Virus record (IMG/VR): IMGVR_UViG_3300002143_000079
Coordinates: 16,336-80,335 of that record
Strand: one strand, 5' to 3'
DNA from: a virus
Length of the DNA stretch: 64,000 nucleotides
The notes under the pieces were generated by a model. It saw nothing but the letters and a program-made list of their open reading frames with translations, was not told where the DNA came from and searched no databases. Shown piece by piece: positions 38,259 to 59,625 of this stretch (positions within the stretch are counted from its first letter, which is position 1; each line of letters begins with the position of its first letter). A program made the translations under genes and the position numbers.

Positions 38259-38295
38259 GGGAAAACTCTACGTTAAATTTATAGAAAGTCAACCA

Positions 38296-39255: not shown

Positions 39256-39297
39256 ATGAGTCACGATACCAAGGGTTTATAAAAAGTCAACAACCTT

Positions 39298-48176: not shown

Positions 48177-48584
48177 TTACTTCTTGAACTTGTTAACGAC
48201 ATTGGTCAGATTCAACACGCCGTCATGGGAGAAGGTGATTCCCTCAACCGTCACACCGTCAGCGGATACAATGGCCTGATAACCATTTCCAACGTCAACG
48301 GATTCATCGGAAGGTTCAAGCAGGAACTCGAGCAACTCACCCAAACGAGCCACGGTGAAGGTCTTTGCTCGGGCATATTTATGACCATCTATTTTATTGA
48401 ATCCTTCCACCACGGCGAGATATGGATATTCCCTAGTAAACTCATACAAATCACCACCTTTTTGCAAGGTATCGGGAACCTTGGCACCAACAATTTGTGA
48501 GAGGAATAGAATGGCCAAGTCATTTTCCCGTTGGTTTTTGACTTTGATGGATACGTCTGCGAGATTATCTTGATTGATTTTCAT
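48177..48584 (-). CDS. Hypothetical early protein
   Basis: Own promoter; paralog nearby. Confidence 0.7.
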   Translation of the reverse strand: MKINQDNLADVSIKVKNQRENDLAILFLSQIVGAKVPDTLQKGGDLYEFTREYPYLAVVEGFNKIDGHKYARAKTFTVARLGELLEFLLEPSDESVDVGNGYQAIVSADGVTVEGITFSHDGVLNLTNVVNKFKK

Positions 48585-48593
48585 GTATAGAGA

Positions 48594-48845
48594 TTACACG
48601 GTTTTGATAAAACTGTCAACCTTATTCATAAGGTCTGGATAGGATGTACCGTGGATTTTTTGTTCACCTTTGGTATCCCCATTGGTAAAGCTAAGGGTGG
48701 CTTCAAACTTCCACGCACCAACTTTGCTCCACACATCGGGGTAACAGTGAACGAATATACGGTCGATTTTACTCTTTTCAAAGGGGTTTTTCAGGATTGA
48801 CGGTGTTCCCGAAAAACCCCACAAGGCACCATTTAGTAGGTTCAT
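48594..48845 (-). CDS. Hypothetical protein
   Basis: 83-aa ORF. Confidence 0.6.
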   Translation of the reverse strand: MNLLNGALWGFSGTPSILKNPFEKSKIDRIFVHCYPDVWSKVGAWKFEATLSFTNGDTKGEQKIHGTSYPDLMNKVDSFIKTV

Positions 48846-48848
48846 TGG

Positions 48849-49073
48849 TTATTCGGTGAAATTGTAGAAACCGACATAACGGGTGGTGTTTCCGTCGATG
48901 TCAGAGTTATCGAAACCATCCGTCTTGGGATTGGCCTTTTCGATTTCCGCGTGAATGGAGTGAAGCAAATCCATCTTGGCGTCATACTCTTGCAGCGACT
49001 GGCGCTGGTCCAAGGTCAGACGTTCGTTGATGGAGAGTTTCAGATTCGTGGAGAGGTTCGTTTTGTTATTCAT
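48849..49073 (-). CDS. Hypothetical early protein
   Basis: Own promoter. Confidence 0.6.
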   Translation of the reverse strand: MNNKTNLSTNLKLSINERLTLDQRQSLQEYDAKMDLLHSIHAEIEKANPKTDGFDNSDIDGNTTRYVGFYNFTE

Positions 49074-49676
49074 TGTGAAAAAAGATTACTACACATTTAG
49101 AAAAAGTCAACAGTCAATCGGCCTTTTTATGAAAAAAGTTTAGACGTATTGGTAGTCCACTTTTTCCTGCAACAGATTGAGATTGAATTCAATCTCACGA
49201 TACGTCTTGTCAAGGGATATTTTCCTGAGTGCGAATGGAGTCCACACTATCTCGCCGTTCGGTAGTTCTTTCTCTTTACGCATCGGCAACTTCCGTGGTT
49301 TAAGAAAACGAATCTTAATAAGTAGTTAATCGTTAGGGAGATACACGTCACCATGCAAAAACACCGTATCGTTGCGAAGCAGTTCATTCAGGGGAACGTC
49401 AACCAACACGTAACCCATATTCATAATCTGTTCCATTGTCAATCCATTATTCTTGCGAATGAGAGAAAGAATATGAAACGGAGTGGCCAGTTTGACTGGA
49501 TTAATGTCGTCGTTGTCTTCGGTAAATTTCATTTTAGAAATGGTTAGCTGGTTCAACCTTCGGGTGAATGAATACATCATCGTCACCACAAGTCGTATCA
49601 TGTTCCACAAAACATGGAAAGTCAACTTCTTTCGCATTGGTCAAGTTCTGCAACTGTCTGATATACTCCGGTTTAT

Positions 49677-51015
49677 CAATTCTTTAGACATAATGGAGCG
49701 ATTTTTTTGTGAATGTTTCTCAAACTCGATGGAAATATTTACAAAAAAATCGCGTATTTGTAAAAAATATTGTAATTTTACAAAAGTTTAGACTATTTAA
49801 TATTAGAATGAAGTTAATACATAAGTCATACAAGTTTAGAATCACTCCTGACAAAGAGCAGATTGAATTGCTTGCAAAACATTTTGGGGCTTGTAGATTT
49901 GTGTTTAATCGTTACTTGAATAGTAGAAAAGAAACATATCTTGAAGAAAAGAAATCACTCAATTACTATGATAATGCAAATGACTTGACTGTTCTGAAAA
50001 AAGATGAACAGTTTGTTTGGCTTAAAGAAATTAACTCTCAAAGTTTACAATCATCACTTAGAAATTTAGATACTGCTTACAATAAGTTTTTTAGAAAGCA
50101 AACTAAATTTCCAAGATTTAAAAACAAGTTTGACAAACAAAGTTTTACAATACCACAATCGGTGTATATTGAAGATGGTAAATTACAGATACCTAAATTC
50201 AAAAAAGGTATTGAAATAAATTTACATAGAGAAATTGAAGGCAAACTTCTTTTTGCAACAATATCAAAATCAACAACAGGAAAGTATTATGTAAGCATCA
50301 CTTGTGAAGTAGAATATATTCCATTTGAAAAAACAAACACAAAGGTAGGTATTGATACGGGAATTAAGGATTTAGCTATACTTTCAGATGGTAAGGTGTA
50401 TGAAAACATAAAGACACTAAAAACCAACTTAAAGAAGTTAAAATATGAACAAAGACAATTATCTAAAAAAGTAAAAGGAAGCAATTCCAGATTAAAACAA
50501 AAATCAAAACTTGCAACAATACACGAAAAAGTAACCAATATCAGAAAAGACTATTTGCATAAAGTTAGTACAGAAATCATCAAAAACCACGATGTAATTT
50601 GTATTGAAGATTTAGCTGTGAAAAATATGATGAAGAATCATAAATTAGCACAAGCCTTTTCTGATGTTTCGTTGGGTACTTTTTACACTATGCTTGAATA
50701 TAAAGCTAATTGGAACGATAAGACGGTTGTTAAGATTGACCGATTCTTTCCAAGTAGTAAAACCTGTAATGTTTGTAATTACATAAATCAAGACCTAACT
50801 CTAAAAGATAGAGAATGGACTTGTAAAAGTTGTAATACTGTACACGACAGAGATTTTAATGCAAGCGTGAATATTAAAAAACAAGGTTTAAAAATACTAT
50901 CTGGTTTAGGAACTAACTCGGATGTAAAACAAAAACGGAGTAAGGCGTTACCATTAGGTGAGTCTATGACCTCCGAAGCCCATCCCATCAGCTTTGCTGT
51001 GGGTGGGTAGTTCAC
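49677..51015 (+). mobile_element. IS200/IS605-family element carrying only tnpB
   Basis: Right end GAAGCCC...GGGTAGTTCAC ending 51015; 22-bp imperfect hairpin 49698-49753; inferred left junction after TTTAT (49672-49676); no tnpA; opposite strand to neighbours. Confidence 0.75.
49808..51010 (+). CDS. tnpB: RNA-guided endonuclease TnpB
   Basis: YKFRI.P...FGACRFVFN; RuvC residues intact GIDTG, IEDL, DRDFNA; zinc ribbon CNVC...CKSC; start set at ATG 49808. Confidence 0.93.
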   Translation: MKLIHKSYKFRITPDKEQIELLAKHFGACRFVFNRYLNSRKETYLEEKKSLNYYDNANDLTVLKKDEQFVWLKEINSQSLQSSLRNLDTAYNKFFRKQTKFPRFKNKFDKQSFTIPQSVYIEDGKLQIPKFKKGIEINLHREIEGKLLFATISKSTTGKYYVSITCEVEYIPFEKTNTKVGIDTGIKDLAILSDGKVYENIKTLKTNLKKLKYEQRQLSKKVKGSNSRLKQKSKLATIHEKVTNIRKDYLHKVSTEIIKNHDVICIEDLAVKNMMKNHKLAQAFSDVSLGTFYTMLEYKANWNDKTVVKIDRFFPSSKTCNVCNYINQDLTLKDREWTCKSCNTVHDRDFNASVNIKKQGLKILSGLGTNSDVKQKRSKALPLGESMTSEAHPISFAVGG

Positions 51016-51028
51016 ACAAAGTCAACAA

Positions 51029-51301
51029 TTACTTTGATTCAATAATCGTGACGTCACCTTGCACCAAACCAAACGAGGATGATTCCGCAAACTTGTATGT
51101 CTCTGCCACATCGTTGGTTGTCATTGGTCGAGTGAGAAGCCACATGTTGTCTTGTTTCCAAGTGACATTCACCAACTTGCGGCCCGGTGGCAACTTCTCG
51201 GTGGCCGACCCACCAAAGTTACGAGCACGTTGATTTTCGGTGCAACCAACCAAAACGAGGGCGAGTGAGAGAACGATAAAGAGTTTATTCATATAGGTCA
51301 C
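51029..51301 (-). CDS. Putative lipoprotein
   Basis: Signal peptide with lipobox LVGC. Confidence 0.7.
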   Translation of the reverse strand: MTYMNKLFIVLSLALVLVGCTENQRARNFGGSATEKLPPGRKLVNVTWKQDNMWLLTRPMTTNDVAETYKFAESSSFGLVQGDVTIIESK

Positions 51302-51308
51302 ATATACC

Positions 51309-51596
51309 TTACAACTTCCAATTTGTCAAGAGTGTGACAGTGAAAGCTTGGTCATCCCCACCCATAAAAACCAGTTGACCCACATCGTTGACAATCACTT
51401 CCCTGTTGTCAGCTTCGTTTGCGACGATGGAATAATCCCAACCATCCTCATCCGTCCAATTCACACAAAGAAATTCGTTGGTATCTTCACCATCTAAGTC
51501 AGAAAGGCCCGGATACGTAAGGACTGTATCATCCACGATTACAGCCGCAGCCTGTTCAAGACGTGAGAAAGATTCTGCAAGAGAGATTGTTTTCAT
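51309..51596 (-). CDS. Acidic hypothetical early protein
   Basis: Own promoter. Confidence 0.65.
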   Translation of the reverse strand: MKTISLAESFSRLEQAAAVIVDDTVLTYPGLSDLDGEDTNEFLCVNWTDEDGWDYSIVANEADNREVIVNDVGQLVFMGGDDQAFTVTLLTNWKL

Positions 51597-51627
51597 TTGA
51601 TTTACAATACCGGAGTTTTATAAAATG

Positions 51628-52419
51628 TCAACACTTACTTTTGAACATTGGATTTCCATCACCACACCTTGAAATAGAACACTGTTTGGATTTCGTATCA
51701 CCTATTCCCTTTTGCCATTTTTGATATACTCCGGCTTTTTTGAGAACACGTATGACAATATATTGACTTAATCCCGTTTCTTTAGCAATCAATCTCGGAC
51801 CAATTGTTTGATAAAGTTTAATTACAGTTAATTCCGTTTCTTTGGAAACCGATTTAAATTCCTTACCCGTGAATCGTATTCTATTTTCATCAGCTATTCT
51901 TTTTCTGGTTTTTTCATCTTGGGGATGTGGATGATTGTCATACCAGTTTTTTACCGATTTGGATATTTTATCTTTCCATGCTATTTCCCTGCCACCAAGC
52001 ATGTCTTTCATATATTCACTAAACTCTTTTGTTTTCCATCTTTCTTTTAATTTAAATGAATGTAATTTTCTGTTTTCTTCTACTTGCCACCATTTTTTAC
52101 ACCCGTCTCTCAATTTATTGAGATTCTTTTCTCTATTATTTTCATTCCACGTTTGGCCGCCTGTTCCTCCATCTGTTAAGTTATACCCAATAATTCTATC
52201 AGTAGATTTGAAAAAGTCAATCCAATATTTTTCTCTTTCATTTAAAATATCAGTTGCCGGACAGGTTTCAATAATTTCTTTTTTAAAATTTTCCTTACCA
52301 TATTTTTTGATAGCAGCACGAATCAACAATCCAGACCCATAATAGGTAGGATTGTTGATTGTGTCTTTGCCTATATAAACTTTATTGTTAAGTAAATTGG
52401 TCGTTTTGTATATTATCAT
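51628..52419 (-). CDS. GIY-YIG (Seg-like) homing endonuclease
   Basis: MIIYKTTN...YIGK...YYGSG...YGKENF...GYNLTDGGTGG. Confidence 0.88.
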   Translation of the reverse strand: MIIYKTTNLLNNKVYIGKDTINNPTYYGSGLLIRAAIKKYGKENFKKEIIETCPATDILNEREKYWIDFFKSTDRIIGYNLTDGGTGGQTWNENNREKNLNKLRDGCKKWWQVEENRKLHSFKLKERWKTKEFSEYMKDMLGGREIAWKDKISKSVKNWYDNHPHPQDEKTRKRIADENRIRFTGKEFKSVSKETELTVIKLYQTIGPRLIAKETGLSQYIVIRVLKKAGVYQKWQKGIGDTKSKQCSISRCGDGNPMFKSKC

Positions 52420-59160: not shown

Positions 59161-59193
59161 ACCGGGATTACATTACCGGTTTTTTATAAATTG

Positions 59194-59625
59194 TCAATAA
59201 TCACTTTGTATAAAATTGTTGGTGACTAGATTACATAATCTTATAAAGTTTTCGGATGTTAGTGAAGCTTTAGCGATGTTAATATCTTTATGAACAAATT
59301 GTAAATTTGTCAAATCATTTGTTCCTCCACGGGAAATCGGATGAATGTGGTCAATAGACATTGTATCTCTAGTCAATCTCTGACCCGTAAACGGACAAAT
59401 CAACTTCTGTTTTTTAGCGATTTTCCATAAATCAAATGGTGTAACAGTGATTAACGGATTTTTATTCTTCATTCGGCCATTACAACCGTTATTTAATCTA
59501 CCGGAAACCGTTTTGAAAACTTTTCTCCGTCTATGGTTTCTCATCCACTCACGTTTTTGTTTTTTATAATGATTATGACGTTCCGAATTGTTTTTTATAC
59601 TTTTGTATTTTTTTGCATTAGGCAT
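59194..59625 (-). CDS. HNH endonuclease
   Basis: CPFTG...SIDHIHPISRGGTNDLTNLQFVHKDIN.AK. Confidence 0.85.
   Translation of the reverse strand: MPNAKKYKSIKNNSERHNHYKKQKREWMRNHRRRKVFKTVSGRLNNGCNGRMKNKNPLITVTPFDLWKIAKKQKLICPFTGQRLTRDTMSIDHIHPISRGGTNDLTNLQFVHKDINIAKASLTSENFIRLCNLVTNNFIQSDY

What the first reader, a model, noticed from the sequence alone, without database searches (positions are those of the whole stretch)
49672..51035. TnpB whose predicted TAM+guide resembles the phage's own repeated promoter motif
Seen: the right end finishes at TCAC (51015), so the predicted guide is ACAAAGTCAACAATTACTTT. The inferred left junction follows TTTAT. The rejoined empty site, TTTAT-ACAAAGTCAAC, differs by one base from the common promoter motif TTTAT-A(G/A)AAAGTCAAC; for example 39276-39293 has TTTAT plus 12 of the first 13 guide bases. 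Rejoining also restores an open frame (LTLYKPEYIRQLQNL...ANHF, ending 49534), which supports the junction. RuvC D/E/D residues are intact, and I saw no exact target in the window. Known: TnpB guides derive from the 3' flank, and the TAM matches the insertion motif. Inference: either ordinary homing after insertion into an abundant motif, or one guide able to bind many early promoters (RNA-guided shut-off, or attack on related phages).
Basis: partly seen in the sequence, partly recalled or inferred. Interest (0 to 1): 0.72.

Follow-up and report, generated by a model that had tools for sequence, protein, structure and literature searches.

The report
Stranded TnpB element splitting a phage promoter
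A transposon remnant carrying an intact RNA-guided DNA cutter (TnpB) sits inside one early promoter of a marine T4-like phage, so its guide resembles the phage's promoter motif only because of where it landed; it is an ordinary selfish "homing" element, not a promoter regulator.

Summary
A 1,339-bp IS605-family element (49677-51015) carries an intact tnpB, a covarying guide-RNA scaffold and a right end ...TTCAC. It follows TTTAT, the target motif of its relatives and of the studied ISGst2/GstTnpB2.

Rejoining the flanks rebuilds an early promoter (GTTGACTTTGT|ATAAA-N5-GTATATC). The motif has 34 copies in the window against 0.33 expected.

The guide-promoter likeness is a by-product of the insertion site:
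- Twenty related copies in other phage contigs have unrelated guides.
- Every other promoter copy mismatches guide position 2, where published TnpB data show unwinding fails.
- RuvC is intact, so this is not a TldR-type repressor.

- The element has lost tnpA and its left-end hairpin. It cannot transpose and could spread only by RNA-guided homing or recombination.
- The "restored ORF" is not a gene.
- Marine metagenomes from two studies hold a near-identical phage allele that lacks the element. That allele also lacks 83 nt of left flank, including the TTT of TTTAT, so the guide should not cut it.

This scan has logged many phage TnpB elements on other DNA, including promoter-lodged ones. Verdict: new member of a known kind, modest interest.

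The parts
49672..49676 (+). TTTAT: target/TAM (target-adjacent motif) pentanucleotide directly 5' of the element. On the minus strand it is the ATAAA of the promoter spacer.
   Evidence: TTTAT precedes the left end in 7 of 8 relatives. It is the same TAM as ISGst2/GstTnpB2 (PMC10055086).
49677..49691 (-). Stub of tnpA: start codon plus 4 codons (ATG TCT AAA GAA TTG). The rest of tnpA and the whole left-end hairpin are missing.
   Evidence: Full-length relatives carry a divergent 136-aa Y1/HUH TnpA that starts MSKKSQY at this position. There is no LE motif and no tnpA in the 80-kb contig.
49698..49754 (.). 22-bp hairpin in the tnpA-tnpB intergenic control region. It is conserved in relatives with compensatory changes.
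   Evidence: Rfam hits here are only spurious miRNA-hairpin matches.
49808..51010 (+). tnpB, 400 aa, intact. RuvC residues are D183/E267/D349 (numbered from Met), with two CxxC pairs.
   Evidence: dN/dS is about 0.1 against five phage-borne relatives.
50816..51015 (+). omega-RNA scaffold overlapping the tnpB 3' end. It has a long-range stem (50816-50821 with 51009-51014), two internal hairpins and the terminal right-end hairpin, and it ends in TTCAC.
   Evidence: RNAalifold on 17 copies gives 38 pairs, 19 with compensatory changes (alignment A1).
51016..51035 (+). Predicted guide template (16-20 nt), ACAAAGTCAACAATTACTTT. Bases 1-11 are the -35 half of the split promoter. Bases 12-16 are the TAA stop plus 2 nt of the upstream gene.
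   Evidence: Guide length is inferred from the roughly 16-nt guides of studied TnpBs.
51020..51025 (-). -35 hexamer TTGACT of the split early promoter, now 1.34 kb from its -10.
   Evidence: (promoter alignment).
49660..49666 (-). -10 region (GTATATC) of the split promoter, at the family's usual distance once the element is removed.
49592..49674 (.). 83-nt left flank that is absent, together with the element, from the natural element-free allele. It holds the TTT of the TAM, the -10 above and a second, degenerate promoter (TTGACT-17-CATGAT, 49625..49597).
   Evidence: read laying joint 49591-AT-51016 in runs X1 and X4, from two studies. Promoter scan.
49326..49532 (-). Downstream early gene (68 aa, MKFTEDND...), intact in both alleles. 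It is the likely real gene served by the split promoter.

Best explanation
This is a non-autonomous, 'stranded' IS200/IS605-family element of the ISGst2 type (target motif TTTAT, right-end motif TTCAC). It inserted 3' of a TTTAT that happens to lie between the -35 and -10 boxes of one early promoter of an uncultured marine T4-like phage.

It keeps an intact TnpB nuclease and its omega-RNA. The guide is by construction the 3' flank, so it reads through the -35 box and therefore looks like the promoter motif.

The element has lost tnpA and the left-end hairpin, so TnpA cannot move it. The only spread open to it is RNA-guided homing. In that process TnpB-omega-RNA would cut the TTTAT-ACAAAGTCAACAATTA site in an element-free relative during co-infection. 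Recombinational repair, very active in T4-like phages, would then copy the element in.

The phage's other promoters are not targets.

Shown: anatomy, ends, target motif, RNA structure, intact catalytic residues, absence of self-targets, and presence/absence polymorphism in nature. Inferred: that the ribonucleoprotein is active and that homing occurs.
For: - Family assignment and an intact D-E-D triad plus zinc finger.
- The right end is defined to the base by 20 sister copies with unrelated flanks.
- TTTAT lies 5' of the left end in 7 of 8 relatives and here.
- TTTAT as TAM and TTCAC as right-end motif are identical to experimentally characterised GstTnpB2 (PMC10055086).
- The omega-RNA scaffold shows covariation in 19 of 38 pairs.
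- dN/dS is about 0.1.
- The rejoined site matches the promoter consensus 15/16, with a -10 at the proper spacing.
- tnpA and the left end are present in 17 or more relatives but absent here.
- No TTTAT site in the 80-kb contig has a perfect seed, and every promoter copy mismatches guide position 2.
- Near-identical phage contigs without the element occur in two independent metagenome studies, with the right junction exactly at 51016 and the AT of TTTAT retained.
- 'Transposon non-restorative homing' into co-infecting phages is an already described concept (PMC13565253).
Against: - No activity data exist.
- The only element-free allele recovered lacks the TTT of the TAM and 80 further bases. 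So a cleavable empty site has not been seen, and the insertion history is not a single clean event.
- How a copy without a left end came to abut TTTAT precisely is unexplained. L007 shows a similar boundary at another site.
- dN/dS mostly reflects time spent in autonomous ancestors.
- Only 23% of the phage genome is in hand, so a tnpA or a self-target elsewhere cannot be excluded.
Confidence: 0.8

Rival explanations
1. Promoter-wide RNA-guided binding. The single guide lets TnpB sit on many early promoters (TTTAT + A[A/G]AAAGTCAAC) and shut off early transcription, or attack any phage that uses this promoter type.
For: - 34 motif copies carry the TAM in the right register, and 10-11 of the first 12 guide bases match.
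- dTnpB2 ChIP-seq off-target binding is driven largely by the TAM, with weak seed dependence (PMC10055086).
- One unrelated viral contig (L089) has an exact TAM+16 match in a promoter-like spot.
Against: - Every copy mismatches at guide position 2 and again after position 11.
- Mismatches in positions 1-4 abolish TnpB unwinding, and single mismatches at positions 4, 7 and 10 nearly abolish cleavage.
- RuvC is intact, whereas known RNA-guided repressors (TldR) are nuclease-dead and no longer lie in transposon ends.
- Twenty sister elements have guides unrelated to any promoter motif.
- TAM-only contacts would apply equally to about 547 TTTAT sites per 80 kb.
Confidence: 0.05
2. Decaying relic. 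The copy is stranded and functionless, merely tolerated in a dispensable early-region spacer, and destined for loss. The element-free allele is then simply a deletion that removed it together with 83 nt.
For: - There is no tnpA and no left end.
- The element interrupts a promoter.
- A near-identical phage lacks it.
- The early region is a mosaic of small dispensable cassettes with a GIY-YIG homing endonuclease 600 bp away.
Against: - The 400-aa ORF, the catalytic triad, the zinc finger and all omega-RNA stems are intact.
- The right junction of the element-free allele coincides to the base with the transposon end and keeps AT of TTTAT. A random deletion would not do this.
Confidence: 0.15
3. 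A different history, compatible with the same function. The element did not insert here by TnpA. A 1.42-kb block (the element plus 83 nt of another promoter cassette) was imported by recombination between repeated early-promoter motifs or from a diverged relative. On this view the metagenome allele is ancestral.
For: - The alleles differ by element plus 83 nt while the flanks are 0-3 differences in 1.8 kb, so one event is more parsimonious than two.
- The 83 nt contain a second promoter-like box resembling the junction of the element-free allele.
- The copy lacks a left end, so TnpA could not have placed it in its present form.
Against: - The resident -35 half and the imported half fit the promoter consensus and spacing perfectly.
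- TTTAT sits exactly at the boundary.
- The 83 nt occur nowhere else in the contig or in the fetched loci.
- No donor was found.
Confidence: 0.3

Closest known systems
ISGst2 / GstTnpB2 of Geobacillus stearothermophilus (IS605 family; Meers et al., PMC10055086)
   Same: It has the same TAM (TTTAT) and the same right-end motif (TTCAC). The guide RNA is encoded across the tnpB 3' end and the right end. The proposed role is cutting the element-free site to bias inheritance.
   Different: The host here is a lytic-type T4-like marine phage. tnpA and the left end are lost, so there is no peel-and-paste step to restore. Activity is untested.
ISDra2 TnpB-omega-RNA (PDB 8H1J, 8BF8, 8EXA)
   Same: The sequence aligns full length (E about 5e-80). 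The RuvC triad and zinc finger are conserved, and the omega-RNA has a guide-adjacent long-range stem.
   Different: The TAM is TTGAT in ISDra2 (from my own knowledge) but TTTAT here. The two proteins are clearly diverged (bit score about 272 over about 390 residues; identity was not computed).
Free-standing homing endonucleases of T-even phages (Seg/Mob; intronless homing, marker exclusion)
   Same: Both are selfish nuclease genes in the hyperplastic early region, with presence/absence polymorphism between near-identical phages. Spread is expected through double-strand-break repair in co-infection. A GIY-YIG homing endonuclease lies 600 bp away.
   Different: Target recognition here is by RNA guide plus TAM rather than by protein. 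Self/non-self discrimination comes from the insertion itself.
TldR (TnpB-like nuclease-dead repressors; 10.1101/2023.11.30.569447)
   Same: Both are TnpB-fold proteins, some phage-encoded, with a guide complementary to a promoter next to a TAM.
   Different: TldRs have a degraded RuvC and often lack the zinc-finger C-terminus, and they are detached from transposon ends. Here the nuclease and the right end are intact, and the only fully matching promoter is the one the element destroyed.

Membership tests
IS200/IS605-family TnpB (OMEGA) element | TnpB protein with OrfB_IS605 RuvC core, zinc-finger/TNB domain and N-terminal HTH | tested here: met
   Pfam E-values are 6.6e-29, 1.3e-22 and 2.3e-17. 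The protein aligns full length to ISDra2 TnpB.
IS200/IS605-family TnpB (OMEGA) element | Intact RuvC D-E-D catalytic triad | tested here: met
   D183 (GID), E267 (CIED) and D349 (DRDF) align to ISDra2 D191/E278/D361. The ISDra2 numbering is from my own knowledge.
IS200/IS605-family TnpB (OMEGA) element | Structured omega-RNA overlapping the tnpB 3' end and stopping at the right-end boundary | tested here: met
   38 consensus pairs, 19 with compensatory changes, in 17 copies. No Rfam family matched.
IS200/IS605-family TnpB (OMEGA) element | Conserved right end with cleavage motif, flanks diverging immediately after it | tested here: met
   ...GGGTAGTTCAC| in 21 copies, with all 3' flanks different.
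IS200/IS605-family TnpB (OMEGA) element | Left end with subterminal hairpin directly 3' of the target motif | tested here: not met
   Relatives have TTTAT + 5 nt + GGAGCGTAAAACCCAC...hairpin. The window has TTTAT followed directly by a 5-codon tnpA stub, and there is no LE motif in the contig.
IS200/IS605-family TnpB (OMEGA) element | Y1 (HUH) TnpA transposase (autonomous members only) | tested here: not met
   tblastn with the L006 TnpA finds nothing in the 80-kb contig. That contig is only about 23% of the genome.
IS200/IS605-family TnpB (OMEGA) element | RNA-guided, TAM-dependent DNA cleavage | not testable with these tools
   Needs RIP-seq and plasmid-interference or in-vitro cleavage assays.
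TldR RNA-guided repressors | Degraded RuvC active site and/or truncated C-terminal zinc-finger/RuvC domain | tested here: not met
   The triad and both CxxC pairs are intact. The definition is from 10.1101/2023.11.30.569447.
TldR RNA-guided repressors | Guide fully complementary across the seed to a TAM-flanked site in a functioning promoter | tested here: not met
   All intact promoter copies mismatch at guide position 2. The only full match is the split promoter itself.
Homing (drive) element in phage populations | Presence/absence polymorphism at the same locus in near-identical genomes | tested here: met
   Contigs in runs X1 and X4 (two studies) bridge 49591-AT-51016. Run X19 carries the element.
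Homing (drive) element in phage populations | The element-free allele carries the cleavable target (TAM plus guide match) | tested here: not met
   The recovered allele keeps the full protospacer but reads CAAAT instead of TTTAT. GstTnpB2 cleavage is highly TAM-sensitive. A TTTAT-bearing empty allele was not found.

The most novel reading that the evidence does not exclude
The element is an active RNA-guided gene drive in a wild marine T4-like phage population. On this reading, the element-free allele seen in two metagenome studies is a drive-resistant allele. It keeps the protospacer but has lost the TTT of the TAM through an 83-nt deletion, and it survives because TTTAT-bearing empty sites are converted. 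That would be a natural TnpB homing/resistance polymorphism readable directly from metagenomes.
Probability: 0.2. Interest if true: 0.6.

Novelty: new member of a known kind. Interest (0 to 1): 0.3.

Why it matters
It adds a cleanly dissected case of an IS605-type TnpB stranded in a lytic-type phage. Its ends, target motif, guide and RNA fold can all be read to the base, and wild element-plus and element-free alleles exist. A run labelled as a single organism holds the filled allele at 132x, so the phage may be in culture, which would make RNA-guided homing testable in phage crosses.

It also gives a caution for similar findings. When a transposon lands in a repeated motif, its guide will resemble that motif, and this resemblance does not imply a regulatory role. 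The seed-position mismatch and the diversity of sister-copy guides are the quick checks.

Tried and rejected
- Megablast of the 5-kb region against GenBank phages gave no match.
- Rfam gave only spurious miRNA-hairpin hits on the intergenic hairpin and no omega-RNA family.
- Relatives of the flanking genes in IMG/VR were either distant and not syntenic (L082-L084) or absent.
- Exact-pattern scans for the rejoined site, the left flank and the right flank found nothing in viral and metagenome contigs.
- A scan for TAM plus 16-nt guide found one unrelated 83-kb viral contig and one locus shared by four Nostoc assemblies. I judge these chance or generic sigma-70-like matches, because L089 holds only that one motif copy.
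- I looked for microhomology or direct repeats that would explain the 83-nt gap, and for the 83 nt elsewhere in the contig. Neither was found (and by eye).
- The loose-end flanks of other copies of the element in runs X1 and X2 are not in the 80-kb contig.
- The 'restored ORF' was rejected as evidence.
- No structure prediction or complex prediction was run. The sequence match to solved TnpB structures made them unnecessary.

Full report
**Context.** The window is 64 kb of an 80-kb IMG/VR contig judged about 23% complete. PHROG hits point to a T4-like phage: a baseplate wedge protein, an RnlA-type RNA ligase and a GIY-YIG homing endonuclease at 51628-52419. Public runs that hold the region are mostly marine. 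From about 36 kb onward the window is an early region of small minus-strand genes. Each lies behind the same promoter, GTTGACTTTYTATAAA-N5-GGTAaTCT, with an ATG a few bases further on.

**The observation.** The motif TTTATARAAAGTCAAC occurs 34 times at 2 mismatches or fewer, against 0.33 expected, and its strand follows gene direction.
- tnpB runs from 49808 to 51010 on the plus strand, antisense to the phage genes. It hits the three Pfam TnpB domains and aligns full length to ISDra2 TnpB (E about 5e-80).
- The catalytic acids are conserved in GID, CIED and DRDF (D183/E267/D349 from Met), as are both CxxC pairs.
- IMG/VR holds more than 80 related loci, many on 300-kb-class phage contigs. In the closest of them, DNA similarity to the window spans 49679-51015. 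In 20 of these loci the conserved ...GGGTAGTTCAC is followed at once by unrelated sequence. The right end at 51015, and therefore the guide start at 51016, is fixed to the base.
- The last 200 nt fold into a conserved scaffold. It has a long-range stem that closes just before the guide, and 19 of 38 pairs show compensatory changes.
- dN/dS against five relatives is about 0.1.

**Left side.** Most close relatives are full IS605-type elements. They carry a divergent 136-aa Y1 transposase and a left end of the form TTTAT + 5 nt + GGAGCGTAAAACCCAC...hairpin. TTTAT precedes the left end in 7 of 8 such copies. TTTAT as TAM (target-adjacent motif) and TTCAC as right-end motif are exactly those shown experimentally for ISGst2/GstTnpB2 (PMC10055086).

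The window copy differs. After TTTAT (49672-49676) come only the first five codons of tnpA, read on the minus strand. Then follow the conserved intergenic hairpin (49698-49754) and tnpB. The left-end hairpin and the body of tnpA are gone, and neither is found elsewhere in the 80-kb contig. L007 has a similar boundary at an unrelated site, L003 has a different truncation, and L030 has the left end fused straight to tnpB. Loss of tnpA is therefore recurrent. How a copy without a left end comes to abut TTTAT so precisely is unexplained. An aberrant TnpA event on a once-complete insertion is my guess.

**What the rejoined site is.** Read on the minus strand, removing 49677-51015 gives TAA-TT-GTTGACTTTGT|ATAAA-ccgga-GTATATC. 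That is a standard early promoter placed, like many others, two bases after the upstream gene's stop. The element therefore splits one promoter between its -35 and -10 boxes.

However, it begins in the -35 box, has no ATG, and is destroyed in a natural allele. The 68-aa ORF MKFTEDND... (49532-49326) is intact in both alleles. The frame is not evidence for the junction; the promoter fit and the TAM are.

**Is the guide aimed at the promoters?** I compared TTTAT plus the 20-nt guide with every site in the 80-kb contig.
- No site has a perfect 12-nt seed.
- All promoter copies carry A or G where the guide has C at position 2, and they diverge again after position 11.
- The best sites are 14/16, at 38278 and 39667.

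For Ymu1 TnpB, mismatches in the first 1-4 nt abolish DNA unwinding, and single mismatches at positions 4, 7 and 10 nearly abolish cleavage (10.64898/2026.01.09.698545). Known RNA-guided repressors of this fold (TldR) are nuclease-dead and detached from transposon ends; this protein is neither. The guides of 20 sister copies have 4-10 mismatches to the 11-nt motif, so the family does not seek promoters. TTTAT occurs 547 times in 80 kb, and only about 15-30 of those lie in promoters. An inter-cassette spacer in a dispensable early region is simply a tolerated landing place. The resemblance is a by-product of the insertion site.

**Natural alleles.** Laying Logan contigs of four runs on 48300-52400 gave three results.
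- X19 is a run labelled as a single organism, at 132x depth. It carries the element and is probably the source or a near-identical phage.
- X1 and X4 are marine or aquatic metagenomes from two different studies. Each has a contig that joins 49591 to 51016 with the two letters AT between, and the flanks show 0-3 differences.
- X1 also holds pieces identical to the element, attached to other flanks that are not in this contig.

So a near-identical phage without the element exists. Its right junction is exactly the predicted one, and the AT fits the end of TTTAT. But it also lacks 49592-49674. Those 83 nt hold the TTT of the TAM, the -10 box and a second, degenerate promoter. This allele reads CAAAT-ACAAAGTCAAC... 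and should not be cut, given the TAM sensitivity of GstTnpB2.

I could not decide among three histories for the 83-nt difference:
- a separate deletion in the element-free lineage;
- a drive-resistant allele;
- DNA that arrived together with the element by recombination between promoter cassettes.

There is no microhomology at the gap, and the 83 nt occur nowhere else in the data. No TTTAT-bearing empty allele was found.

**Mechanism.** TnpB-omega-RNA would recognise TTTAT plus about 16 nt of the -35 box and the end of the upstream gene in an element-free relative. It would cut that site, and recombinational repair would copy the element in. A 2026 review calls this 'transposon non-restorative homing' into co-infecting phages (PMC13565253). 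Without tnpA or a left end, this and ordinary recombination are the element's only routes of spread. Activity is inferred, not shown.

**Comparison and verdict.** The element is a member of the IS200/IS605 TnpB family, closest in its rules to ISGst2 and in fold to ISDra2. It is degenerate on its left side, and functionally it is analogous to the Seg/Mob homing endonucleases of T-even phages. This scan has already logged many phage TnpB elements on other DNA. They include TTTAT/TTCAC copies and promoter-lodged ones judged a 'lucky fit' (e1-5642313, e1-5745755). The finding is real, but its ordinary reading is the right one. The element-free allele with a deleted TAM is the one feature worth following up.

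Noticed in passing
L015:4176-4925: In a sister element, a 249-aa GIY-YIG homing-endonuclease ORF is inserted into the 3' end of tnpB and the omega-RNA region, and runs in frame into the TnpB C-terminal residues. Its N-terminus (MIIYK.TN...YIGK) resembles the window's GIY-YIG gene at 51628-52419. This is one selfish nuclease nested inside another.
   Followed up: partly
window 49698-49754: A 22-bp hairpin lies between the tnpA stub and tnpB. It is conserved across relatives with compensatory changes (for example gtgaatgtttc/gaaatatttac against gtaagtgtttc/gaaacacttac). It ends 8 nt before the tnpA start codon, so it may gate tnpA translation as in IS200. I did not test this.
   Followed up: no
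window 48589: All four public runs laid on the region, including the 132x run X19, carry six extra bases (GAAACG) after 48589 relative to the window. The site lies at the junction of two small minus-strand ORFs. It is either an assembly difference or a strain difference in the IMG/VR contig.
   Followed up: no
window 59190-59218 (minus strand): This is the only other TTTAT site whose next 7 bases match the guide exactly (TTTAT-ACAAAGT, mismatch at position 8). It lies at a gene end just upstream of another early promoter. It is probably chance (about 0.03-0.1 expected) and too short for cleavage.
   Followed up: partly
L089:5478-5498; L085:3991-4011: Exact TTTAT plus 16-nt guide matches occur in an unrelated 83-kb viral contig, in a promoter-like spot between two genes. 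They also occur at one intergenic locus shared by four Nostoc assemblies. I judge these chance or generic -35-box similarity.
   Followed up: partly
L038:1858-2579: In this relative tnpA is split by an insertion of about 720 bp: residues 1-107 and 110-136 map about 720 bp apart.
   Followed up: no
window 49586-49630: A degenerate second early promoter (TTGACT-17-CATGAT, 49625..49597) sits next to a short imperfect tandem repeat (TTGTGG-N13-TTGTGG on the minus strand). This is the region where the element-free allele's 83-nt gap ends. It looks like a remnant of cassette shuffling.
   Followed up: partly
runs X1 and X2: Pieces 100% identical to the element occur in the same metagenomes attached to other 3' flanks that are not in the 80-kb contig. 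Sister copies therefore sit elsewhere, either in the unsampled part of this phage or in other genomes.
   Followed up: partly
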